A stretch of DNA of 63,386 nt, filler included, from Circinaria calcarea (Eukaryota), in the NCBI GenBank assembly GCA_051942165.1. It is 8 parts of 8 records of this genome, joined end to end, with 100 filler letters (N's around TTAATTAATTAA, not from the genome) between each part and the next. Parts side by side here need not be neighbours in the genome. Positions count along the whole stretch, not along the records: positions 47,630 to 55,458 come from JAVECS010001238.1; 7 more parts are not named here. One strand, given 5' to 3'. Shown here piece after piece: positions 424 through 61,500 of this stretch. The position numbers were made by a program, and so were the translations under genes. Each line of letters starts with the position of its first letter. Positions within the stretch are counted from its first letter, which is position 1. The notes under the pieces were generated by a model, which worked only from the letters and a program-made list of their open reading frames with translations, was not told the origin of the DNA and searched no databases.

Positions 424-614
424 CAAATATATTCAATAGCTCGAGATTATTTATATAATAACAGATTTCGCAAACCCAATGTTTTTCTAAAATAAGCCAG
501 ATTCCACCGGTTTTACCTTCCTATATTAAACTTGTTGTGAATTAATGGACAGTAATACAGGGTGGAATAGGCTGTATTGGCTATGGTAACTACCACTCTA
601 TGTGTATGGACTTC

Positions 615-722
615 ACTATGGAACTGCATAGCAGAAAACTCTGCTATATGTGCGTTCGGTGGATAGTTCGACCGCTCCGAATACTAGTTCCTCCACGCAG
701 TGTAGAACCCCTATTCTTGACA
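615..722 (+). repeat. Dispersed repeat, family B (probable 3' part of an LTR)
   Basis: Aligns with 23827..23933 (ACTGCAT..CAGAAA.CTCTGCTATA..TGCGT...TTCTTGACA). Similarity stops exactly at TGACA. 5' end not resolved, possibly ~535. Confidence 0.6.
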
Positions 723-1024
723 CTTGTAGCATTGTAGAGGGAGTGTTTTAATAAATTAAAAAAAGGGGAAAAGAAATCGCAGGTGCTATGATGTCAAGGA
801 TTCTTGGTATTCGCTATCCTAAGATGCCGTCTTTAATACACAAATGGTTCACCCCCCCGCTCCTTCTGCGGAAGGTCCAGGGGACCCCGTGACAGCAGGC
901 TTTTATAAGTAGAGACGGAGAATGGAAATCCCAATCGATATAGTAATGCCCTCCGACGTTATAAGGTAAATGCAGCGTAGGAGATCCGTTATGGTGAGGC
1001 AGTATAAATTGTTAATCTTAATGG

Positions 1025-2180
1025 TTAATAAGCTGTGTTTTGGAGTTTGTTATTGCCTACGTTCCCGAGGAACACCACCAAGACGGCGCAATAGCTATGG
1101 TTGAAGGCCGTTAGCGGCAGTTGCGGTCCGGGATAACAAGCGCAAAGTTGATGGAGCGTATTTGGAAAAGCAATGTGTTGTTGTACCGCATATGAAAATA
1201 GGGGGGAACTTACGCCGCAGAAGCAGCAAGGATCTCGTGACGTTGGGCCCGTGTGAAGAAGGAGAGCACAATGGAGAAGACAAGTGTAAAGCTCATCAAG
1301 ATCCCTATGCTGGCAGGATTGGAGGCTGTGAGTTCGTTCGCGGCTGATATGTGGAACAACAGATATACCGGTACCACCAGGAGAATAAAAATCACCAGGG
1401 TAATGATTAGGTTTACGAATGTTTCGATGCGCTCGCGGGTGTAGTAGTGGAGCAGCCTATTCTCGGTCTTCCCTCTTGCTTCCTGCAATGACTACGTTAG
1501 CTTGCTGCCTTACTATTCGGCCTAAGCCCGCACAGCCTTGAAGACGCCTCAGGGATACATGCTTTGGAGCAAAATATATACTGCAGAGTCCGATTAGTTT
1601 GGGCATTACGCGGCGGCTGCTCGATGAACCCACCTGGATCAATCGGCAATGGAAAGCTTTCAAAATTCGTTCTACAAAGGCGTCTAGCCACGCATGTTCC
1701 CTTCCAGGTCGTAACGTGATCAGATCTTGTTTCTCCTTGATAAATCCACAGTCGGCCTCGGACAAAGGTGCTTCGGTATCCAACCAATTTACCACACTCG
1801 TATAATCACGAGTACTTGGAGTATTCCAGGAAAGGAGCTCCTTCGATTGCCGAAGTAGTTCCCCATACTCTAGTGTCTTTTTCTCGATCCTTTGTAGCAA
1901 CTCCTTTCTCGAACTTCGCCCATGTTGATTCTTGGGTGCATCGTCCTTGCCTCTAGACCTCAAGCAGTTCTGGAACGAGTCATCTTTCCAATCCCGCTTG
2001 TCCATTTCACGCAGTTCATCTTCTAGTTCTCTCCGCTCATCTTGCTTGTAGAGGAGCAGCTTGGCATGTAAGAAGCCGAAGCGACGGTATATCGTGAAGC
2101 TGGCAGGGTAAGATCCATGCTCAAATAGCCGGCGTCTTTCTCCTGTCCCTTTCCAACGGTCTTCGTTATTCGTAGTTCCA
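1025..2180 (-). CDS. DUF6594-like membrane protein, multi-exon; 5' end uncertain
   Basis: Spliced reading FTIYRRFGFLHAKLLLYKQDE...DLITLRPGREHAWLD...FTRAQRHEILAASAA|YCAVLVVFLGNV matches the motifs I recall for this fungal family. Stop TAA at 1025-1027. No in-frame ATG found upstream of the IYRRFG motif. Confidence 0.75.
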
Positions 2181-3134
2181 CAACATCAGATCCTGGTGGC
2201 GCGCTATCCAGTAGCTTCTCCAAATGTACACATCTAGAAGCTATGTATCGGATGGCCCCGCATTACAGCTCTCCATGAGGGGACCATGGTCATCGGAGCC
2301 CTTGTGTCTTGGGTTTTTGGGCTGGCGTTGCAAGCCGCCCCCATGACAGCGGTAAATTTGGAAGAGAGCATATACCATCTCGTGCAGGAGGGTGTGCAAA
2401 TCGACCTCCGGATCGGGTTCTCCCCAGATCAAGAAGCCTGAAAGATTCCAAACACGGATGCCAACAAACGGTAAACCTCGATCTACATCAGTCCATGTTG
2501 GCCATCGTCAGCAAGCTGATTGACCTACCTATATTTACCCCGAGACTTTCTGCACAAAACGGCTGAGACGACAACCGAAGTAACCAGAAGGACTCGCTCT
2601 GGTTTAACACAACAGCGTAGAAGATATCATAATAAAGAATGACGTACCAAAGTTGAGTAGACTATAGAATTGAGAGAACATCTATATACCACTCTAATAC
2701 GCTAGCATTTTCTTTTTATTCCCCCCCCCCTCTTCCCTTCTCCTGCTTTACCCGCTCCAAGTCTTGCAAAGAAACGCTTCCATGTGCCCTCTTTTGTTTT
2801 CCCGAGAAGATTGTAAAATCGGACAAGGGGGAGCGAGAGCGAGGTCAGGGGGAAACGGGAGCCCCGCGGAAGGGAGAACGAAGAGTAAGAAGATGACAGA
2901 TATATAATTACTTACTTGGTCAGTTTATCGGCAGTGAACTCGATTTCGTTTGAGAGGTCTTGTATTTGTATTTGTATGTGTTGTGTTTCTTTGGCAAAGG
3001 GAAAAGAAAAAAAATTCACGCCGCTTGAGAATCTTTGGCAGCGCAGACAGCGCGGGCGCCTTAGGGCAATTGGAGGTTGGGTGAGGAAAGTATTGGGTAT
3101 ATATACCCCCTCTCCGCGTATTAACCCTCGCAAC

Positions 3135-4603
3135 TCACCATGCCTTTCCCTCCACAGGCGGAGTCATCTGTCCCCTTTCCCTTCCTGCTCCTCTTTCTTC
3201 CAGATTCAAATCCCCTTCACTCTCTCTTTCTTTCCGCAGCTTTCGCGTATAAACATACACATTTCTCCCCCCTTTACTCGTTCCACCCTTTGCCGCATTC
3301 AATCTTAACCCGCCAAAACTCCCATTTCCACCCATCCGCCCACTCCCATCCGACTCATTGCTATTTTCCCCCCTACCCCTCCATCTTCCCCTCAGAACCG
3401 CACTCGAAGCTGTCGAGCTCTTGCCCGGTACTGATGGCTGCGGGGAGCTCCCGATGACAGATCGGAGGATCGGGCGCATGGTGGGGAGGCAGGCGGAGAC
3501 GACGGCGATGTTGGGTTCAACGAGGTTCCAGAGGACGCCCGGGAAGAAGTTCCCTGCCGGGGGGGTTAGTCAGTTGGGTTGTGGTTTCTTTAGGGAAAGG
3601 AGAAGGGGACTCCCCGGGGGGGGATTACAAACAGGTAGGATCGATGTGTTTGAGCTGCAACCAGACGACGAGGCGGATGACAGAGACGACGGTGACGCTT
3701 TGGGGAAAGGGGTTAGTATCGAAAGGAAGAGAGCAATGGCGTCAAATTTGGGGTAAAAACGTACAAAGCACCGACAAGGAAAACGGCCGTGACGGCGAGT
3801 CTCTGCGCTCGAGTGATTTGCAAGGTCCATACAAAAGGGAGAGGCATGAAGAGAAGGATGATATCGGTAAGGATGTTTGGCACAGCTGTTCCGATCAGGA
3901 ATTTCCTAATGTCGAAGCAGTGGCCGTGCACGCTGGGATTCCAGAGGGAGCTGGCGGGTACGCATTTGAAGATCGCACCGAGTTCCTACGGCTAGACTAT
4001 TAGACGGTGCTTTTTTTGGTCTTGGGTGGCTCTGGCAGTACTCACAGCGGCAATGAACCACGCTGTCACCACCCCGAACATGATGTAAAACGGTAGCTTG
4101 AGGTGTGTGACTTTGAATATCCGCCAGTAGAAGCACAGAATGGAGTACTTGACTAGGGTGGTGGTGATTGCATAGGTGATTTCCAATATATATAAAGCTT
4201 TGTAGACGTTGTGCACTCCTTTGCGGCTGGTGGTGACCGCATGCTTCCCGATTCCAAATCGCGTCACTGCGTCGACCTATTAGAGGAGCTTCAGAACTAT
4301 TGGTGGAATGGAGAAACATACAAAGTATACCGAGGATCAAGGTACTGGAACAGGTTATCTAACTTGTTGTTAGAGACTTCAACCAACCGGCTACCGCCAC
4401 TAGGGTGTCAGCCCAGTTCATGGGAGAAAAAGTACCAATGCCATAAGAGCAAGCCAGTCATCCCACCAGTAGCCCACTCTTGCTAATCTTCTAGACAGGA
4501 AACGTAAAAACACAGCGACACCAGCCAAAGTGTAGACAGCAATTGTGGCAGCAAGTAGTATGGGCCCCTTGTCTACCGTTTCATGGACTGTTGTTGCCAT
4601 CAT
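3135..4603 (-). CDS. Pth11-like (fungal rhodopsin-domain) integral membrane protein, no CFEM domain
   Basis: LRFLSRR...WWDDW, GIGKH, KYSILCFYWRIF, NILTDIILLFMPLPFVWTLQ, VEPNIAVVSACLPTMRP over several GT-AG introns. Confidence 0.9.
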
Positions 4604-5658
4604 TCGACATGGCAGTACAAGATGGACATTCCGGGAAAGGAAAGCAAAGCAAAGGAAGAGTCTGGTCATGTACCTATGAACCTTCCAGCCAGTCGTCTTG
4701 CTTAGAACCTAGATATGGCTCTTACGGTAAAGGCTGGATAACACGAACGCATGTTGCAAATACGTGCCGTACGCTCATCTTGAGGCAGAGCGCAGTGCCA
4801 ATCATCGCACCTAGAACATAGGGGATCCAGGGACGGATTCTTTGCTAAATATCAGACTCCTCCGGCACCAATGATTCCAAAGACGCAAAGGAAGGTTGAA
4901 AACTAGGAAGCAGGTATAAACGAGAAACGTGGAAAGCCGCAGGCATAACTGCCAGCATTCCCGGTATCAAGATAGACGATGCAACCTGCCTGTATGACAC
5001 CATTAAGCGTGGGGTGCCACAAGCCGGACGACCAGATATAGATAGATGATTGGCTCAGCCCAATAAACCCAATGGCAAGGGTGAAAACAGAGTGCCTCCG
5101 AACGTTGGTTGTATGAGATCAATCTCAAAGTCTAATGTAGGTTACAGTGGTAGTTTTCCTGTCACAGCACCTGCTGCGGCCTGCATCAGCTGAGTCAGCT
5201 CGTAAACTTAGATCCATGGGTTTCATCCAATACGTGTGTAATAATAGACTCGTTGGTATTATTGCACAACCTCCTCCCACAGAATCTCGAGATAGATTCT
5301 CTTCTAACCTGGTGTCGCGAATACCTAACCTCGACTTCTCGGTCTCGCGTACATCACCCGGTCCCAAAATTTCGTTATCCTCGCCGTTTTTCAGAAACGA
5401 GGCGCCTGCCAAAAGTACAACGTCCTGGGCATCCGTAATGATCTTTAGGGTGACCGTAATTAGTACTGGCACCTGTTGTCGCTTGCGCGGCGTTGACGTA
5501 AGGTTCCATTCCCCCAGATCCAAGACTCAGCTCTACCCACAAGAACTCCTCGGTCCTTTATGTAAGGAATTTCACGCCAGTTGCGTCCTACCTTGCCTCT
5601 CATTCAATATCTCTTCCCCCCCAAAAAAACCTCCAGACCCCGAACCCCATGCCTGAAC

Positions 5659-6659
5659 CTACGCGGTTGTTGCACTTCCTCCGGTCCTCTTCCGTATGCC
5701 AGCCTCCCACAGCTCCCTCAGCCTCGGCAACGCCTTCTGGTTTCCAACCTCATCCCTCTTCACCCTGATCCTGATCGGTGTCTCCTCTTTGTCCATGCGT
5801 AAATCTACCATCCCGAACACCGGCACCCTTCCCTCGAGATCTTCTGCCATGATGGTCTTGTTCGAGACTCGGAAGCCTGAGTAGTAGCCTTGCCGAGATA
5901 TGTAAGCTTGGTGATTGAGGGTCGAAGGTGAAACGTGGATTTGGACTTCGCGTAGCGGGGGCTGAGGATCATCGATGGATGACGGTATCTGGACTGAAGA
6001 GGAGGGTAGTGGGAAGGGCAATGGAGGGTTGGCAACGGGAACAGAAGAGGATGGCGGTGTCGAATCAGGAGGAACAGGGGATGGTTCAGGTGGAGGATTT
6101 GACAAGGCTTGGACGCTCGGGAATGTAGTACCCCACGGCTTTCGATCCTTCAGCTCCTTGATAGCCGCATCGTCTGCGTCCGATATGGGCCGTTTAACAC
6201 CCGTTATCTGGTCTTCGATTGAATCCTCAACCACTTGTCGCGTGGCCTCTTGCGTAGAGTCTGACCGTATTCCAATCCTCTGATCGTCTCGTCGTTGGTT
6301 CTCGTCCCCGGCATTAAGCCCGTACTCCTTCACCTTCCCTTCACTTGTTCCAAACACAAATCTCATCGGACTAGCCTTCATGGCTTTCTCAGCGCCGGTG
6401 GTGTACCGATAGATGGCGAGAGCCGAATTGGGCGCGGGAGCTTGCGGTTCATACTGTACTTGACCGATCGATCAGCTGCCGCGATTAGACTTGGGCAAAA
6501 AGCCCAGCACACCTTAAGATGCTTAAACATGACCACTTCCCCATACCTCTCCAGCACGCGCAGCACCTGGCGCGATTCAGCGAGATTCCGGGGCCGGGGA
6601 TGGATCTTGATATGTACAGCCCGGCCGGCGACTACACTCGCTGTACGAATAGTCGCCAT
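5659..6659 (-). CDS. Fungal hypothetical protein, 2 exons
   Basis: Exon 1 MATIRTASVVAGRAVHIKIHPRPRNLAESRQVLRVLERYGEVVMFKHLK splices (GTGTGC...TACAG) to YEPQAPAPNSALAIY... which runs into ORF 5659..6381. Confidence 0.75.
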
Positions 6660-7843: not shown

Positions 7844-7943
7844 NNNNNNNNNNNNNNNNNNNNNNNNNNNNNNNNNNNNNNNNNNNNTTAATTAATTAAN
7901 NNNNNNNNNNNNNNNNNNNNNNNNNNNNNNNNNNNNNNNNNNN
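7844..7943. other. Artificial contig linker
   Basis: N44-TTAATTAATTAA-N44; stops in all six frames. Confidence 0.99.
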
Positions 7944-47629: not shown

Positions 47630-48370
47630 CCTCCCTCCATCAAAAATCTGAAATGTTACTCCTGCAAAGGGGTGGATGTGCAAAAACTCTTCCAGCGCGA
47701 CCATCGCATTTGCCGCCACCTGCCAGGTCATGCTATCTACCCCGTTACTCCACAGATTCATCATCAGGCCGAGCGGTGCATCACCCATCATCTGGAAGAA
47801 GCCGTGGGGTATGGGGTTGTTACCGTTAGCACGTAATTCTTGGGTCGCGTGGCGAAAGGTGTTGCCGATGACGTTGAGGGCGGCGACAGTGAAGGCAGGG
47901 GGAACCCTTGGCCGGCCGGCACCGGCGATGATGAGCTGGATGTAGGTTTGGGTGGAGGGAGTGCACCAGTAGAAGTCTAAGGCGCGGGCATGAAGACTTC
48001 GGGAAGAGGGCGGAATTGTGGGTAGGGACCGTGGTCGGCGTGGGTGGAAAAAGCTGTTTAGAAAAAAGGATGGAGAGTTAATGGATTGGCTTTGCTGGTT
48101 TACCAATTGGGGAACACGAGAACGGGAGAGAAGAGGGGGGAAATGTTTATAAGGCGAGGTTAGAGGACAAAAAGGTTACACTCACGTCCCAGCCAGAGTA
48201 TGCTTAGCATTACTGCAAACCCGCTGATCTGGCGCATATTCGACGGCCGGATTTGGCCGGCGGCGCGGGACGATGGCCTTGAAGCCCGTGACGGGAGGAG
48301 AGGAGCCGAGAGGGTGAGCCAGAACGAGAGTGCTGGAGAGGACGACGGTCAGGAGAGAAATGGCACGCAT
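47630..48370 (-). CDS. Small secreted protein, 2 exons; 3' end truncated
   Basis: Signal peptide MRAISLLTVVLSSTLVLAHP; intron GTGAGT...CTAAACAG; second exon ..LHARALDFYWC...MTWQVAANAMVALEEFL...TFQIFDGG. Confidence 0.75.
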
Positions 48371-49498
48371 TTTGCAGAAGGCTCTTGAATTGGATTGAAT
48401 TGAATTGAATTAGGTCTTTTAGATTGTGCAGAGAAATTGTGGACTCCAAACGCAAAAGGGAATTAAAAGCCTTGAAGGTCAAAGATCGAAACCGAAACGA
48501 AGACCGAACCATTTAAACCCGTTGGCCCATAGTCAAACTCATTCTCGTGCGATGTGCGATGTGCGATGTGCGCTAGGTAGCGCAAATATAGTCTCATACC
48601 CTTCCGAGTCCCAGTCCCAGTCCGAGTCCTTGTCCAGGACAATATCTTTTCGAGGAAAATTAGGCACTAGTCATACTGCTCCAGGGTCAGGACTGTGAGA
48701 CGAGTATGGCGACGAGCAAGAGACAGGGACAGAGGCAGGGACAGAGACAGAGACAGAGACAGAGACACAATGCGCTCGGATACATGTACGGATATATGGG
48801 CGTACAGGACGAAGAAGGAAAAAGTAAGGTCTGAGATCTGAGAAAAGAGAGAGAGAGAGAGCGCCAAAAGAAAGCAATGCGAATTAGGATGCGATACACA
48901 TGCAGTAGATACCTGATCGATCCTATATCGCCTGTGCTACTTTTTCGCCACGCTCCCGATGCGCATACGGCAATTGTGTAAGAAATTTTATCGCGTAGCG
49001 TATGTAGCAAAATTCCAGATGGCTGATGGGCTGAAACGTGTCCCGTGCTCAGGAGTGAAACCACTTCAGTATCTTTAACTGCCGAATCTGGGAACAGGGT
49101 CGCCGCGTTTGGCCGTCAAAACCGTGAGATCAAAGACGCGCGAGGATTGGAAAATCTGGAGGGCGAGTCGGGTTTGGGCCCGGTTTCGCAGGCGAAAGAT
49201 ATGGGGGCGTTGGTCGCGAGAGCATGGGCATATTAGTTGAGTAGCAAGGGAATGGAAAGAGAGGGAGATTCAGTGGTATGCAAGTATTGAAATTGAATGG
49301 ATTTAGGTAGAAAGCGCATTTGTACATTGTTCATCTCGCCAACAACACGACGCAGCCTGGCTTTCGACTCAGACGTGAAGGTAAAGCTGCCTTGGTATGG
49401 ATAAGCTCGTCCCGTTTACCGTCTTCCCGTCGTGTAATAAGAGCCTGGCTGTCAACATTGTCTTTGCCCTCTTCCTCTCGATATGTTCCGCCGTCTGC

Positions 49499-50362
49499 TC
49501 AAGAGCTCTGTGCATAGACGGAACCTGAGTATAATGGTTCGGGATATAGTTCTTCCTTCAGGTTTACGCCCATTTCTTCCCTCAAGTCTTTTAAGTCGCG
49601 GAGATATTCGTCGTATTGGCCTTTGTTTTCGACTTTGGCTTTGATGCCTGGATTCGTGTGCACAACCGATTAGCTGCTTTGCTCCGCTAGTCATGTAATC
49701 AATTGGGCAAAGAAAAGTCTAGAGTGAGATTTGCCAGATAGGCAATCAGACGGGGCAAGCGTATCTGTGCCGTACCTTCAAAGATCCGAACGGCTGTAGG
49801 GTAGTCATTTACTCTCCTTGCGGCGCGCAGGGCAGCTGTGATGACGGAAGGAGACGGGACGAGATCATAGGCAAAGGCGTTGTTGAGGTTTCGCTACAAG
49901 GACGTATGTATTAGCAATGGGCAATGGGGGAACATGAGCTTGGGGGACATTGAACATTGAGGAATCGTACCTGGAGCTCAAAGACATCCTGAACGCCATC
50001 AAACTCCTTCTCGTATCTGCAAAGTCCCATCCCATTAGCTCCGGCCATGCCGATAGATAGCTCACGCAGCCGATACCATCCTACTCTACCGTAGACCTCG
50101 AGGCTTCCATTGGCTGATACATAGAGGTTGGGTGTAGCTTCTACCTTGCCGTGAACTCCTCAAAGCTCTCCTCATGACTATCTGCCGCTTCCTGCCCGTC
50201 CTTATCCACTGTCCTCCTGGCAGTGGTGCTGAAGCTATTGCATGTCCCAACTCCTGCGGAAGCAGCTGCCAGCACCGGTAGTCGCCGTGCCGTCGATGGC
50301 AATCGGAAGATGTGAGAGGTATGAGTGCGTGATGCCAGACGTAAGAAATGGACTGTCGACAT
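49499..50362 (-). CDS. COX6: Cytochrome c oxidase subunit Va (yeast subunit VI), 4 exons
   Basis: HEESFEEFTAR|YEKEFDGVQDVFELQ|RNLNNAFAYDLVPSPSVITAALRAARRVNDYPTAVRIFEG|IKAKVENKGQYDEYL. Confidence 0.96.
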
Positions 50363-51100
50363 TGAGAGTGGAGAGTGGGGGGAGTTCTTGGAGCTTTGGA
50401 TCTTTCGGATGTGAGGTATTTTGTCGATTGATCGAGAGTGATTGGTCTTGGCGTGAAGTGTGACTAAAAGTGGACCTAAGCTACTTATGGAGTGAAGGTG
50501 ATGACGTTTCGGACCTGATTTTGGAGACACCTTCACGATATCATCTCCTACCAGATTATACACTTACAATTTAAAAGGTGAAGACAGTTCATAAATGTTG
50601 AATAGCATCATCAAACACACGGACGAGTAACCATTCATCACCAGAATACAGTACCGCAAAGAAAGCATCATTGAACTTCGGGAACATATATCCCTCGTCC
50701 AAAGATTTACCAGGCTAGTACATCACCCTAGATGCCCACTCATTCTTGCCATTCGCTCTTTCCGGCAATGAATCTACAATTCTCTTTCGTACCACTGTTC
50801 GATCCGATAAGAGGGCGGGCTGACGGTGCTGGAACCAAAAGGATAATACAATTAGTTGCCCTAGTTTTACATAGCCTTTCGACGGTACCATCTGAATGTT
50901 CTACCCCACTCTTGTATAGGGGAAACTGAGCTCGCTTTGTTTTACAGAGTGGTGACTGATGACCCGATTGAGGAAAGTCGGGTTGAAGAATACTTTCTTT
51001 AGGGCATGGGGTATTAAGATGTGCGCTTGGTATTTTTCAATGCCCAGTCTCGCCGGTTGGTTAGTCCAGCAGATTACCTTGCTAGAGCTAAGGTTTTCTT

Positions 51101-51690
51101 CTATATGCAGCCATCTTGTAGTAGTTTAAGTCTTTCAAGGGTTTGCCGGACATGGCCTTCCTCCTGGCTCGCTGTGAGTCGTCTGGTCGACCGCCAGGTC
51201 ATTTGGCATCAAGAGCCGGTGGAAATAATTTAAGGATATCTGATCCTAACTTGGGCTGAGACGTTGCTGGCCTTTTCTTCATCGGTATCGTATCGATCTC
51301 GATATAGGTCCGTCTTGTTGTGGATCACCGAGAATAATGGGATTCCGAATTACATTGAGAGGGTTACCGCACGAGAAGTCGAGTGTTCCAAAAGCAAAGA
51401 TATGGACGAGACATTCTTTTTAAGAGCGCGTATGCGGCATAATCCTAACTCGCGGTCTTATAGGAAAATGGCTGAACTCAAATTGCATTAACAGCTTATT
51501 CGACTACGGATAAAGAACTCTTCTCTATCTGAGCCGCGAGAGCCACTTTCCAACTGGGCCATAAGCTTTCCAAGGTCACACTCTTTTTTTGGTTCTATAA
51601 CAGACCTGCCACCACCCCAGCAAGCTCTTTGTGCACCAGAATATCAGAGGCTTTCAGCCAGTTATTCTGACGTAGGGGAGTTAATAATGC
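51101..51690 (-). pseudogene. Decayed partner gene B, copy 1 (unknown family)
   Basis: Aligns with 54134..54760; minus-strand frames conserved with synonymous changes (ESLWPSWKVALAAQIEKSSLSVV; TLDFSCGN; YDTDEEKASNVSAQ; VRQTLERL), but with stops and frameshifts. Confidence 0.5.
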
Positions 51691-51793
51691 CACCAGAATT
51701 AAATCGCCGTCACGGCGTGACAGAGCCTTATTGAATTTGTGCTAAATTTCTAACACCACAAACTATACTTATTATTCCACCGATTATACCGAC

Positions 51794-51912
51794 CGTATTC
51801 ATTATTTCGTATTCATCATTCCGCATTCATTATTTCGTATTCATTATTCCGCATCCATCATTCCGCATTCATTATTCCGCATTCATCATTCCGCATTTAT
51901 TATTCTGCATTC
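51794..51912 (+). repeat. Minisatellite, 8.5 x 14 bp (CGCATTCATCATTC)
   Basis: Units read directly; all unit differences are C/T transitions. Confidence 0.92.
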
Positions 51913-51942
51913 CATTCATTGTTCAATAATTCATAAAAAGGT

Positions 51943-52488
51943 TTAAAGGCGGCTATTTCTTCTGTAAAGTTTATTCATCTAATATAATTTCTTGACGCTG
52001 GTTCCGAAGCTGCGATGGATTATTACACCAAATGTTTTGACCAGAATATAAGCTATATCGAGAGCATTTTGACTTCTCTGCCTGATTATGAAAGTCAGCT
52101 CCCGCCCTGGGAGTATAAGAGGTTAACTGTCTGGACGGTGGAAGCCAAGTACCTACTTAAGGAATTACACGCGATGATAGAATCACCCACCAAAACGCGT
52201 GGTATAGTGGCTCTCTGGCGAAGGGTATGCTTCGATACGAAAAAAGCCGACTTGCTAGATCGCTGGGTGACACGGTGTATTCTGCGGGTAAATATAATCC
52301 TTGCTAAAAGGTATGATTAACAGTTCCTAATCGCACAAACATCCTTGCTAACCGGTTTCACAAGCTTCTTGCAGATACAAGAGGAGGATGAGCCAGAAAG
52401 CCTTAATCAGAAAGCCCTTGGGAGAAACCAGCTAGAAGAAGAGGATTTGCCAAGAAGCCTTGGGCAGAGAGGCCTTGACAACATATAG
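51943..52488 (+). pseudogene. HeLo-like/SesA-like stand-alone domain gene A, copy 1; N-terminus disabled, ORF restarts at ATG 52015
   Basis: Paralogue of 54922..55458 (QLP..EYKRLT.W, TRG, RR..FD.KKA). Same 54-nt intron (52311..52364). The codon aligned with the ATG is TTA, and there is a TAA at 51985. Confidence 0.65.
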
Positions 52489-52686
52489 AGAGGCCTTGAC
52501 AACATATAGAGAAGCGGAGAAGAGAGAACAGTGTATTAACGCGTGTTATGCTCTTAATATTCTGTGGAATTCATATGCTCATCAGCGTGATACTTTTCAC
52601 CTATGCCATAATTATATTCCAAGTAACATGATCGAAAGTAATTATCAGTTGCCATTCAGCCATACGAGAACCTATATTTGATAATT

Positions 52687-53049
52687 TGTAAGGATCCTCT
52701 ACTAATAGTATGATGATCTTACGAAAAGGGGTCGGTAAACTGTGTGATAACGAGCTCAATGGGTTCGCATAGCGTATGAATTATTGCTAAAGAAATCTGG
52801 TATCCCTTAAGCCGTTGCTCACGCGTACACGTCCGTGCCTTTTCTGCACGGACCAGAATCTGGTTCGTGCCAGCCTAGCTGGCCAATCCTAACCTTGTAT
52901 TCAAAGCGTGCACGGACGTGTACGCGTGAGCAACGGCTTAAGGGATAACACTTCGCGAAGAAAACCTTCTTCGCTAAGCCAATACCTCGTGACCTCAGTG
53001 TATAGTTTACCCGTAGGGTTCGTAGGGGTTCTCGGGTAGAGCCCTTATA
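52687..53049 (+). mobile_element. Solo LTR, family A, copy 2, with 5-bp TSD and nested MITE
   Basis: TGTAAGG...CCTTATA flanked by TAATT on both sides (52682-52686 and 53050-53054); aligns with copies 1 and 3 once the insert is removed. Confidence 0.88.
52804..52944. mobile_element. 141-bp MITE with perfect 35-bp terminal inverted repeats
   Basis: CCCTTAAGCCGTTGCTCACGCGTACACGTCCGTGC and its exact reverse complement; absent from the other two LTR copies. Confidence 0.9.
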
Positions 53050-53476
53050 TAATTATTCCCCGCGATAATCTTCGTCCTACTGCACTGAGACTCCTTAGCT
53101 CGCAACCGCCATAGATATATTAATAGATAAAGTACTCTGGTGGACTATCGTATGCGACGGGAGCTGTATTAAAGTAGTATATTTTTTGACCATCGAACCC
53201 TGGAGCTTGGAGTTTGAATGCAATTATATAGGCAGGTAGTTAAGGTGCTACTTAGGACGACTTTTGTTATGATCAGAGAACATTAGTGTAAGGGCGCTGC
53301 AATCCTTAAGGCACAATAAGGAATTATGTCATGTCCCGATTGGTGATAGCACGGTTATAAAGGGTGTAGTTGAACTGTTGCCCTAGGCTCAATATAAAAG
53401 GAGTATATTGAATTCGTTATGGTTCTATAAGCATGCTATCCTAAAGAGCGGGAAAAGCCTGCTATACATAATGCCT

Positions 53477-53585
53477 TGCTCATCTTGCTCACAGCCGCCA
53501 AGCGCTCCGAGCATACTGAGCATAGTCCCCTGCTCACCCTGCTCCTTTTGCTCACTCGCACTGAGCATCATGAGCATACGGAGCA
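53477..53585. repeat. Mirror array of TGCTC/GAGCA pentamers at 9-bp spacing
   Basis: TGCTC at 53477, 53486; GAGCA at 53509, 53518; TGCTC at 53531, 53540, 53549; GAGCA at 53563, 53572, 53581. Confidence 0.8.
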
Positions 53586-54133
53586 ACCGGACGAGGATTC
53601 CTCCGTTCCGGAGTTATCCTTCCTTAGGTATGGCACGCACGCCATAACAGTTATGGTAGGTAGGCGCGGAATAACAATACCCCCAGCCAATTATAAATCT
53701 ACAATGGAATTTTGTATATGGGGTGGATTCCGCTTCTGCTAACTATACCTTATGATATCAAGCTTAGCGTATCGTTGCCGACCTTCCGTATATAATAACT
53801 TTTTACAAAATTCAGCGCAATGTCCTAATTAATAATATTGTGGAAGAAGCGATCTTGAAGCCCAAGTATCCGCCCTCTAGTAAATGAGTACCTCGGCTCC
53901 TCGGGTTGCTAGGAGTCTGGGACCAGACCACCCCCTATCTCTAGCGTGCCTGGCTAAAATTTGCATGGCGTCGCGATTCAGTCCTAAATAACGAACATGA
54001 AAGAAATCACTGCAAGCGATTATTGAATTTTAGATATGTGTTTCAAACCCTTGATTTATCATCTTGGGGTATCCGAATCGATGACTCTGAGAAAATGCAC
54101 TTAGTGCTTTATAAATGAGACAACGAGGAGAGG

Positions 54134-54760
54134 TTAAGTGCTCGGTCCATGCCGATTATCTTCAGCCGAGATCGAAGTGGTGAGTCTTTCAAGGCTTTGG
54201 CGGACAAGGGCTTCCTTCTGGGTTGCTATGGGTTGCTGATAACCTATTCCAGAGACACCGTGTTGTCTGGTAAAAAGCGGGTTGAGTTAGTTTAAGAGCT
54301 TTGTTTTACCTTAGGCTGACACGCTACTTTCCTCTTCTTTATTGGTATCGTATGGTCGATATAGTTCGTTTTAAACCATCAGAAATAATGAAGACTTTGA
54401 ATCCTATGGAGAGGTTTCCGCAAGAGAAGTCGAGTGTCTCCAAGAATTAAAATATCGACAAGACTCTTAGGATGTCTGATTACCAGTGGACTATATGTCT
54501 CAGGGTAAGAGCGAGCATAATCTAATTCGCGGTCTTGAAGGCGATGGCAGGACCATTGCCTCGAGAACTTCTCCGACAATGGACAAAGAACTCTTTGTCT
54601 GAGCCGCGACAGCAATTGTTCAGCTGGAGCAAAAGCTTTCGAAGTTCACATAGTTCTTTCTCGGGTCTGTGACAGATCTGCGGCCAATTCGGGAGGTTCC
54701 CTATGCACCAGAACAACAGAGATTTTCGGTATGATCAATCTGAAGCGGGAGATAACAATG
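54134..54760 (-). pseudogene. Decayed partner gene B, copy 2
   Basis: Homologous to 51101..51690; minus-strand intron signals GTAAAA...CTAAC...ACCAG (54309..54267); last-exon frame ..ATQKEALVRQSLERL..; internal stops. Confidence 0.5.
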
Positions 54761-54799
54761 CTACCAGATTATATAGCAGTCGCCGCGCGCCATATCACC

Positions 54800-54909
54800 A
54801 CCAACCACATTCATCCTTCTAACCAACCACATTTATCCTTCTAACCAACCACATTCATCATCTACCAAGCACACATTTATTATCCCACCAGCCACACATT
54901 CATCATTCC
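54800..54909 (+). repeat. Minisatellite, ~5 x 20-23 bp (ACCAACCACATTCATCCTTCTA)
   Basis: Units read directly; ends 12 nt before the ATG at 54922. Confidence 0.88.
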
Positions 54910-54921
54910 ATCACAGCAGCT

Positions 54922-55458
54922 ATGGAAGCGGTCACCGTAGTCATAGAACTCATCAAACTAGCCAATGCTCTTAAAGAGGCCTCCAAAGCTGCAAGCGACT
55001 ACACCACAAGTTTCAACGAGGGCATAAGCATCCTCGAGGAGATTCTGATTTCTCTGGCCGATCCTGAAAATCAACTCCCGACCGGGGAATACAAGAGGTT
55101 GACTGCCTGGAAAGTGCGAGCCGAGGACCTACTCGAGGACTTGCGCGCCCAGACAAGATCATCCATCGAGACACGCGGTGTTGGGTTCTCCAAAGCCGCT
55201 GTCGCTACCTATCGAAGGCTACGCTTCGACTCGAAGAAGGCCGAGAGGATAAATCACCGAATGATAGAGTGTCTGTTGTCCCTGAACACAATAATTATCG
55301 CTATTAATGTACCCAAACGGTATGACTTGGTAATCCTGGTCGCGCAGACATGCTTGCTAACCCGTCTCGCTAGGCAATCCAAGACATGCCCACCCTTGGT
55401 GTTGCAGCTGGGAGAGGAGGATTTGCCAAGAAGCCTTGGGCAGAGAGGTCTTGACAAT
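54922..55458 (+). CDS. HeLo-like/SesA-like stand-alone helical-domain protein, gene A copy 2 (intact up to the contig end)
   Basis: MEAVTVVIELIKLANALKEASK (amphipathic first helix)...YRRLRFDSKKAERINHRMIECLLSLNTII resembles by eye the N-terminal helical domains of fungal STAND proteins. In-frame 54-nt intron 55320..55373, then tail QLGEEDLPRSLGQRGLDN. Confidence 0.7.
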
Positions 55459-60863: not shown

Positions 60864-61044
60864 TATGCCCGAGGTTCTGAATCGGGGTGAGTCATGTCAA
60901 GGTATATGATAATAATAAGAAGCACAAAGGTAGCTGTTGCGAACGCTATTAGCTTATAATATTATTATGGCGTTAACGCCATATTAGGGGAGGCTAGCTT
61001 CGGAACGGACTAATCTTGAACCGTGCTCAGTATACTCATAGATA

Positions 61045-61263
61045 TATAAGGATTCTCTACGAATAATATGATGATCTTACGAATAAGGGTCGGTAAACTA
61101 TATGATAATGAGCTCAATGGGTTCGCATAGCGTATAAATTATTGCTAAAGAATTCTGGTGTAACGCTTCGCGAAAAAAACCTTCTCGCTAAGCCTACACC
61201 TCGTGACCTCGGGGTATAGTTCACCCGTAGGGTTCGTAGGGACTCTCGGGTAGAGCCCTTACA
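61045..61263 (+). mobile_element. Solo LTR, family A, copy 3
   Basis: TATAAGG (TG mutated to TA)...CCTTACA; full-length alignment with copies 1 and 2. Confidence 0.82.
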
Positions 61264-61500
61264 GGATTTTACCACTAAACCACTAACGCTTTAGATATTT
61301 AAATTTATGTTTCCTATAATAAAATATATTTATATATAATTCTGCCAGCTAATCAGCTCAGCCCAAATCAATTATATAAAGTAGCTACTTGAAATATTTG
61401 CGCAAAAAGCTCTTGGCAAGTTATACTTGCGCGGATATTTAAATGGGCTGTTAGAATAAGCTACTTTTAGCCGAGCTCCGAGAGTAACGGATCGCCTTAG

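What the first reader, a model, noticed from the sequence alone, without database searches (positions are those of the whole stretch)
51101..55458. Tandemly duplicated two-gene cassette built around a stand-alone HeLo-like/SesA-like domain: candidate cell-death, allorecognition or toxin-antidote module
Seen: the unit [minus-strand gene B]-[minisatellite]-[plus-strand gene A] occurs twice in direct orientation (about 51.1-52.5 kb and 54.1-55.5 kb), separated by LTR/MITE debris. Gene A encodes a ~135-aa helical domain, a conserved 54-nt intron and a short tail, with no NTPase or repeat domain in the complete copy 1. The A proteins are only about 40-50% identical by eye. Established: HeLo, HeLo-like and SesA domains act as effector domains of fungal NLR systems, and stand-alone versions (HET-S, HELLP) are controlled through short C-terminal motifs by a neighbouring gene. 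Inference: this could be an undescribed variant whose partner is a small non-NLR gene.
Basis: partly seen in the sequence, partly recalled or inferred. Interest (0 to 1): 0.75.

Follow-up and report, generated by a model that had tools for sequence, protein, structure and literature searches.

The report
HeLo-like gene in Hsp70 three-gene unit
A lichen fungus carries a small stand-alone protein shaped like known cell-killing membrane domains. Its proposed neighbour 'gene B' is only duplicated flanking DNA, but the protein sits repeatedly beside a membrane protein and an unusual Hsp70-type ATPase, which may be what controls it.

Summary
The duplication is real, but the proposed partner is wrong. 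The window is a string of unrelated contigs, and copy 2 runs off contig C1238. Contig C1267 overlaps that end by 115 identical bases and completes it: A2 is a 162-aa stand-alone protein with no NLR part. A is a divergent HeLo-like (PF17111-type) four-helix protein by profile comparison (91%, 126 columns), though below Pfam's cut-off. Copy 1, not copy 2, is the damaged one: it lacks the first helix.

'Gene B' is not an intact gene. It has no spliced ORF above chance, 15 of 22 alignment gaps break the frame, and it is absent beside the third paralog.

The conserved neighbours lie beyond the contig end: a convergent gene C with an N-terminal membrane helix, then a divergent Hsp70-fold ATPase D. 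This A-C-D order recurs at a second locus and, with a weaker A-like gene, at a third. All three A copies keep a charged, non-amyloid tail motif found nowhere else in the genome.

Best reading: a HeLo-like effector gated by an Hsp70/membrane-protein pair instead of an NLR. The anatomy is shown; binding, expression and toxicity are not.

The parts
54922..55458 (+). Gene A2, intact. Exon 1 54922-55319, intron 55320-55373, exon 2 from 55374. The last codon and the stop lie on overlapping contig C1267. 162 aa: a HeLo-like four-helix domain plus a tail of about 30 aa.
   Evidence: model with four helices, pLDDT 73.7; hhalign 91% to a PF17111-hit profile
55405..55457 (+). Conserved tail motif DLP[RK]SLGQR of A2; 92% nt identity to A1, and 8 of 9 residues shared with A3, whose domain is only 30% identical
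52015..52488 (+). Gene A1, 5'-truncated paralog. ORF from ATG 52015, intron 52311-52364, 139 aa. Lacks helix 1; keeps the tail and a partial second copy of it.
   Evidence: 4 of 4 gaps against A2 are in frame; dN/dS 0.55 over 98 codons
51943..52014 (+). Decayed 5' end of A1: 24 codons homologous to the A2 N-terminus, no ATG, TAA at 51985-51987
   Evidence: 49% nt identity
51129..51735 (.). 'B1': upstream flank copied along with A; no intact gene
54183..54790 (.). 'B2': upstream flank of A2; no intact gene, no third copy
51793..51912 (.). Minisatellite, 14-nt unit x 8.6, upstream of A1
54800..54906 (.). Minisatellite, 22-nt unit x 4.9, upstream of A2 (different unit from copy 1)
52682..53050 (.). 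Dispersed repeat, interrupted by a 143-nt hairpin element (52803-52945) flanked by TA on both sides; other genomic copies lack the insert
53282..53663 (.). High-copy dispersed repeat (over 40 listed copies, 75-90% identical); LTR nature not tested
55458..55458 (.). End of contig C1238. The locus continues on C1267 (reverse). Gene C: C1267:5900-6887, convergent with A2 and about 0.7 kb past its stop, 311 aa (P0014). Gene D: starts at C1267:4938, divergent from C across 961 nt, Hsp70-fold ATPase.

Best explanation
Shown: A2 is an intact stand-alone, divergent HeLo-like (MLKL-type four-helix bundle) protein. It is one end of a three-gene unit, A -> <- C -> D in gene order. C has an N-terminal hydrophobic helix and a helical body of no named family. 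D is an atypical Hsp70-fold ATPase head-to-head with C. The window's 'cassette' is an old local duplication of A with about 0.8 kb of upstream and about 0.14 kb of downstream flank. Copy 1 lost helix 1, and repeats filled the gap. Inferred mechanism: C anchors D at a membrane and acts as its cofactor or sensor. A is kept off by docking its charged tail motif on D or C. When the C-D pair is disturbed (non-self contact, a foreign effector or stress), A is released, and its amphipathic first helix inserts into the membrane and oligomerises as HET-S, HELLP and MLKL do, killing the compartment. The Hsp70/membrane pair would replace the NLR-plus-amyloid switch. A1 is either a late pseudogene or a helix-less decoy that competes for the same docking site. 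My odds: anatomy and B as non-gene about 0.9; A, C and D work together about 0.75; the output is cell death about 0.45.
For: A2 ends six bases into C1267. HeLo-like homology: ESM Atlas neighbours at 0.94-0.95 include clusters carrying PF17111 (11-22% of members) and PF17107. hhalign of the 9-member A alignment to a profile of 20 in-genome PF17111 hits gave 91%, E 9e-7, 126 columns, score 41.8; 30 column-shuffled controls reached at most 18.4 and the reversed control 18.1. The model has four helices. Order: tblastx of the C1238+C1267 locus against C821 matches only A (about 30%), C (about 40%) and D (56%), in the same order and orientation. C1361 carries D-like (34%) and C-like (21-22%) genes and a convergent helical ORF in the same order. 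C is found only at these loci. None of 50 other PF17111/PF17107 loci (1.5-kb flanks, some overlapping) had a C- or D-like match. The tail pattern has 4 matches, which are 3 places, all A tails; the control pattern has 0. D matches the DnaK/Hsp70 nucleotide-binding domain at E 2.6e-8. C's N-terminus has a 19-residue hydropathy of 2.21. HeLo/HELL domains kill by an N-terminal helix (PMC12881547, passages).
Against: No A-family member reaches a HeLo, PigL_N or SesA Pfam match even at E<=1 (0 of 9). The fold match is not discriminating: ZAR1 coiled-coil Z 9.6, rmsd 5.4, 108 aligned, tied with unrelated bundles, and Foldseek gave nothing at E<=0.001. A2's first helix is less hydrophobic (1.07) than all 20 in-genome PF17111 hits (1.19-2.56). 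The C1361 ORF does not align to the A family (0.15%) and matches the PF17111 profile only over 27 N-terminal columns (55%); it lacks the tail motif. All synteny evidence comes from one genome; two metagenome scans gave no usable locus. The tail rests on predicted splicing; the deposited proteins P0001 and P0004 stop at the intron. One D paralog (C426) has no C or A in the 10 kb fetched.
Confidence: 0.45

Rival explanations
1. A, C and D work together but not in cell death. A is a non-lytic helical adaptor or co-chaperone of a membrane-tethered atypical Hsp70 module (protein quality control, signalling or a symbiosis interface).
For: Same synteny as the best explanation. A2's first helix is weakly hydrophobic. 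The fold is a generic bundle. PF17111 is now named after a pigment-cluster protein (PigL_N), so the domain is not confined to death effectors.
Against: A diverges as fast as its non-coding flanks (exon 68%, intron 70%, upstream flank 73%) while keeping its frame. This, the small paralog family and the repeat-rich setting fit conflict genes better than housekeeping adaptors (inference).
Confidence: 0.3
2. The three genes are neighbours only because a block was duplicated; there is no functional coupling.
For: All loci come from one genome, and no interaction was shown.
Against: Order and orientation persist at 21-56% protein identity while the flanking genes are unrelated. C was never found without D and a convergent helical gene (3 of 3 loci).
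Confidence: 0.12
3. One reading: A and a small divergent gene B form a toxin-antidote or allorecognition pair.
For: B-region DNA is duplicated with A at 73% identity. A 70-codon open frame exists on the minus strand of B2. A long-dead gene cannot be excluded.
Against: Best spliced ORFs are 53, 42, 70 and 108 aa, against shuffle medians of 63-71 and 90th percentiles of 94-131. 15 of 22 gaps break the frame, against 0 of 4 in A. Different reading frames, on either strand, score alike. There is no third copy and nothing B-like upstream of A3.
Confidence: 0.06
4. A is a HET-S/HELLP-type effector switched on by an NLR through an amyloid tail, in cis or in trans.
For: Stand-alone HeLo-like domain with a conserved short C-terminal motif; A1 has two imperfect copies of it.
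Against: The tails have no GxQxG, are 30-34% charged and contain 2-3 prolines. The motif occurs only in A tails. There is no Walker A motif in any frame of 100 aa or more in the five stretches scanned.
Confidence: 0.05

Closest known systems
HELLP / HET-S / SESA stand-alone effectors with a neighbouring NLR (PMC5485727, PMC12881547; passages read)
   Same: Stand-alone HeLo-like four-helix domain followed by a short conserved C-terminal motif; kept in a small gene cluster
   Different: The tail is charged and proline-containing, not HRAM, PP or sigma-like. No NLR is adjacent and no other gene carries the motif. The neighbours are a membrane-helix protein and an Hsp70-fold ATPase.
HeLo-like / PigL_N domain family (PF17111) and the Goodbye/HeLo/MLKL superfamily (bioRxiv 10.1101/2022.03.16.484565; passages read)
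   Same: End-to-end profile match and four-helix model. That paper notes hundreds of stand-alone basidiomycete MLKL-like domains, few with amyloid motifs, whose controllers are unknown.
   Different: Below the Pfam cut-off; a small divergent subfamily (7 family members among 11 hits). The word Hsp70 does not occur in that paper's main text.
MLKL and the plant CNL coiled-coil domain (ZAR1, 6j5t)
   Same: Helical-bundle likeness (Z 9.6, rmsd 5.4, 108 aligned)
   Different: The match is tied with unrelated bundles; there is no pseudokinase and no NB-ARC/LRR
DnaK/Hsp70 with GrpE; HSPA12-type atypical Hsp70s
   Same: D has the Hsp70 nucleotide-binding fold and sits head-to-head with a helical partner
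   Different: D is far below the Pfam HSP70 cut-off (11.9-13.3 bits vs 20.6). GrpE likeness of C was not shown; its nearest named Atlas cluster is MIEAP at only 0.76. The HSPA12 label is recalled, not tested.

Membership tests
HeLo-like / PigL_N (PF17111) | Score above the Pfam gathering cut-off | tested here: not met
   No match at E<=1 for 9 of 9 members; the A loci are absent from the 60 in-genome matches
HeLo-like / PigL_N (PF17111) | End-to-end homology at profile level | tested here: met
   hhalign 91%, E 9e-7, 126 columns; controls at most 18.4 vs 41.8; Atlas 0.94-0.95
HeLo-like / PigL_N (PF17111) | Four-helix bundle | tested here: met
   H2-44, H54-85, H89-101, H104-129; pLDDT 73.7, pTM 0.61
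HeLo-like / PigL_N (PF17111) | Hydrophobic membrane-inserting N-terminal helix | tested here: inconclusive
   A2 1.07, family 0.58-1.75, in-genome PF17111 hits 1.19-2.56; hydrophobic moment typical; absent in A1
HeLo-like / PigL_N (PF17111) | Membrane permeabilisation and cytotoxicity | not testable with these tools
   Needs expression
SesA (PF17107) | Sequence or profile match | tested here: not met
   hhalign 5%, 13 columns, within the shuffled range; not among the 27 in-genome matches
Amyloid-switched effector/NLR pairs (HET-S/NWD2, HELLP/PNT1, SESA/HET-eN) | C-terminal amyloid motif (HRAM, PP with GxQxG, sigma) | tested here: not met
   No GxQxG, 30-34% charged, 2-3 Pro; a composition test only, no amyloid predictor was run
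Amyloid-switched effector/NLR pairs (HET-S/NWD2, HELLP/PNT1, SESA/HET-eN) | Adjacent NLR carrying the same motif at its N-terminus | tested here: not met
   No Walker A in frames of 100 aa or more on C1238, C1267, C821:1-10000, C1361, C4501; motif only in A tails
All-in-one fungal NLR | NACHT/NB-ARC and repeats in the same protein | tested here: not met
   A2 stops at residue 162; A3 at 161; no longer relative found, which is weak evidence
Two-gene toxin-antidote / het locus (A-B) | Intact partner gene B, linked to A at other loci | tested here: not met
Hsp70 family (gene D) | Actin-like nucleotide-binding domain homologous to DnaK | tested here: met
   Profile of 5 paralogs matches 115 PDB sequences, best DnaK E 2.6e-8
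Hsp70 family (gene D) | Canonical substrate-binding domain and lid | tested here: inconclusive
   The last exons had no Pfam match, but the whole spliced protein was not scanned or folded
GrpE-type exchange factor (gene C) | GrpE fold or sequence match | tested here: inconclusive
   Model too poor (pLDDT 49.9); no GrpE among the rows

The most novel reading that the evidence does not exclude
A fungal cell-death switch with no NLR, amyloid, kinase or protease. A membrane-anchored cofactor and an atypical Hsp70 ATPase hold an MLKL-type effector by a short linear tail motif and release it on a danger signal, with the helix-less duplicate A1 acting as a decoy. This would give a controller to orphan stand-alone HeLo-like proteins and a function to the atypical Hsp70 branch.
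Probability: 0.3. Interest if true: 0.85.

Novelty: new variant of a known kind. Interest (0 to 1): 0.55.

Why it matters
Most stand-alone HeLo/MLKL-like proteins of fungi have no known trigger. In PMC5485727, 155 of 579 carried a HET-s-type motif. In the bioRxiv survey, only a few of 500 basidiomycete ones had any amyloid motif. A conserved link to an Hsp70-fold ATPase and a membrane protein names a concrete candidate controller, and the short tail gives a docking motif that can be mutated. The three genes total about 1,000-1,100 residues and can be co-expressed in yeast.

Tried and rejected
B as a gene: six-frame comparison, spliced-ORF enumeration against 60 shuffles per strand, own-genome DNA and protein searches, Pfam and the region upstream of A3 gave nothing beyond the two copies.

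NLR continuation: rejected. Longer fused relatives of A: none at E<=0.01 among 8,000 candidates, weak evidence.

Metagenome loci: 595 stretches for A2, none a relative. For D, 2 of 348 were confirmed; neither gave an A- or C-like match, and one looks like a chance phage-type hit.

Sequencing runs: none was listed, which is no evidence on expression.

Complex prediction of C(50-311) with the A domain, without the tail and without alignments: no verdict.

Fold of C: low confidence and no informative match. PDB sequence search with the A profile: nothing meaningful. The two-sequence D profile found no PDB match; the five-sequence one did.

Shared promoter motif across 6 independent regions: best 8-mers in 3-4 of 6, against a shuffle maximum of 3 (18 of 20) or 4 (2 of 20). 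CGGCTCAG is seen by eye in four regions but is not above chance. One 11-mer reached 4 of 6 against a null maximum of 3 in 20 shuffles; it was one of five word sizes tried and was not followed up.

RIP: indices give no clear signal. The C1824 hit of the C1361 ORF lies inside an unrelated long coiled-coil frame.

Literature: no paper held all terms (Hsp70, HeLo-like, fungal NLR; HSPA12, fungi, heterokaryon incompatibility; Hsp70-like, HeLo, allorecognition; atypical Hsp70, filamentous fungi, gene cluster; HeLo-like, Hsp70). One search returned two general Hsp70 reviews and only unrelated NLR papers. The library lacks most subscription papers, so absence from print is not proven.
Full report
1. 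Setting. The window is not one piece of DNA. Linkers of N recur about every 7.9 kb, and the finding lies at the end of contig C1238, window 47630-55458, in a 31.5-Mb, 5,512-contig fungal assembly. The source label shown for proteins of this genome is a lichen-forming ascomycete. Sequence after 55558 is another contig.

2. The duplication. Two direct copies exist. Segment identities are: upstream 'B' region 73% over 569 columns, exon 1 68%, intron 70%, tail motif 92%, 3' flank 80%. The unit runs from about 0.8 kb upstream of A to about 0.14 kb past its stop. The minisatellites differ in unit. The spacer holds two dispersed repeats. One is split by a 143-nt hairpin flanked by TA, and other copies lack the insert, as expected for a MITE (inference).

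3. Gene A. A search with the last 85 bases found contig C1267, which overlaps the C1238 end by 115 identical bases. A2 stops six bases further on: 162 aa, no NTPase. A1 is the damaged copy. The 24 codons before ATG 52015 align to the A2 N-terminus but have no start and one TAA. The rest keeps its frame (4 of 4 gaps in frame; dN/dS 0.55 over 98 codons), so it was under selection for much of its history. A third paralog, A3 on C821, is 30% identical. It has a 52-nt GT..CTGAC..CAG intron at the same position, and the spliced frame ends in the same motif, DLP[RK]SLGQR. A back-translated pattern finds this motif at 4 matches, which are 3 places, all A tails; the reversed control finds 0. The splicing is predicted, not observed.

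4. Relatives and family of A. Relatives are few. One 81% identical cluster was found, and five more distant proteins were among 11 profile hits, the last four of which are repeat-protein noise that I dropped. Four of the five end at the intron column, which suggests a shared intron; the fifth is shorter. Pfam finds no HeLo, PigL_N or SesA match in 9 of 9 members. But the Atlas puts A2 next to ascomycete clusters with PF17111/PF17107 members (0.94-0.95). hhalign to a profile of 20 of the 60 in-genome PF17111 hits (chosen for near-full length from the 30 with loci) aligns 126 columns at 91%, score 41.8 against at most 18.4 for 30 shuffles. The SesA profile (13 hits) does not match. The model has four helices. 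The ZAR1 coiled-coil ranks second at Z 9.6, tied with unrelated bundles, and Foldseek has no significant hit. So A works like a divergent HeLo-like domain, but does not pass the Pfam membership test.

5. B is not a gene. No reading frame stands out between the two copies. 15 of 22 gaps are not multiples of three. The best spliced ORFs (42-108 aa) lie inside the shuffle range. B matches only its two copies. Contig C4501 continues C821 upstream of A3 by a 141-nt overlap, and nothing there resembles B. B is best read as promoter/leader DNA copied with A. A long-dead gene cannot be excluded.

6. The real neighbours. On C1267, about 0.7 kb past the A2 stop, lies the convergent gene C (311 aa, P0014), with a hydrophobic N-terminal helix and no Pfam family. 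Head-to-head with C lies D, an Hsp70-fold ATPase, far below the Pfam HSP70 cut-off. tblastx against C821 matches only A, C and D, in the same order and orientation; the flanking genes are unrelated. C's second exon has 2 matches in the genome, both beside A. Of 9 D matches, the top three carry C. The third, C1361, has a C-like gene (21-22%) and a convergent 254-aa helical ORF. That ORF resembles PF17111 only at its N-terminus, does not align to the A family, and has a different, twice-repeated tail. The fourth D (C426) has no C or A in 10 kb. As a control, 0 of 50 PF17111/PF17107 loci with 1.5-kb flanks had C- or D-like sequence. No Walker A motif was found in the five stretches scanned.

7. 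Mechanism. Shown: anatomy, order, tail conservation, absence of an NLR. From established knowledge: HeLo and HeLo-like domains kill through an N-terminal helix, and stand-alone forms are switched by a neighbouring gene through a C-terminal motif (PMC12881547 and PMC5485727, passages). Inferred: because the tail is charged, proline-containing and lacks GxQxG, and no other gene shares it, it is more likely a docking peptide than an amyloid. The only conserved candidates to read it are C and D. I propose a membrane-tethered C-D ATPase pair that holds A and releases it on a signal. Against this: A2's first helix is less hydrophobic than all 20 comparison domains, and no interaction is shown. A non-lethal adaptor role remains a serious rival.

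8. Prior notes and print. I recorded the A-C-D reading and the GrpE idea, before seeing earlier notes. These are unchecked AI notes. I confirmed the triad within this genome, could not confirm a shared promoter motif, and could not test other fungi. Five paper searches combining Hsp70 terms with HeLo-like, allorecognition or gene-cluster terms returned no paper. Hsp70 occurs 0 times in the main texts of the fungal NLR effector survey and the 2025 cell-death review (passages only, supplements not seen). For PMC13149161 I saw passages on HSPA12. The HSPA12 label for D is recalled.

9. Verdict. What remains is a divergent stand-alone HeLo-like gene in a recurrent three-gene unit with a membrane protein and an atypical Hsp70. 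I did not find it in the papers searched, but this scan has already noted it in another genome. New variant of a known kind; interest 0.55.

Noticed in passing
window 7844-7943 and every ~7.9 kb after: The N44-TTAATTAATTAA-N44 runs are linkers between unrelated contigs. Neighbourhood across them is artificial. True continuations were found twice through exact 115-141-nt overlaps between contig ends.
   Followed up: yes
G000:C1361 (L027) 1088-5933: Third, distant D-C-helical-gene locus. The helical ORF (5172-5933, minus) has a tail with two copies of an SPSxxRALEGKS-type repeat, and C has a long low-complexity extension.
   Followed up: partly
window 52372-52512: A1's tail holds an imperfect second copy of the motif 57 nt upstream (72% identical), and a 21-nt tandem duplication covers its stop codon.
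   Followed up: partly
window 54758-54921: An upstream ATG ahead of the 22-nt minisatellite is out of frame with A2 here. In the related protein P0003 it is in frame and adds 47 residues, so repeat number may change the N-terminus or translation.
   Followed up: no
window 52803-52945: 143-nt hairpin element with TA on both sides inserted into a dispersed repeat; another copy of the host repeat lies at window 61042-61273 without the insert.
   Followed up: partly
window 51529-51540 and 54599-54610; C821 and C1361 C-D spacers: The word CGGCTCAG occurs upstream of A1 and A2 and in two of three C-D spacers; not above the shuffle level.
   Followed up: partly
G000:C426 (L028) 505-5760: A fourth atypical Hsp70 has a 640-aa ORF upstream that looks like a piggyBac-type transposase (recalled), with no C or A partner detected.
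   Followed up: no
window 49300-50300 (minus): Intron-rich gene that looks like cytochrome c oxidase subunit Va (label recalled, not tested); the left neighbour of the unit. C1267 ends with a fatty-acid-elongase-like gene, and C821 carries RanGAP-like and Sec10-like genes (labels recalled).
   Followed up: no
G000 whole genome: Large HeLo-like repertoire: 60 PF17111 and 27 PF17107 matches; many lie in open frames of only 130-180 aa and could include further stand-alone forms.
   Followed up: no
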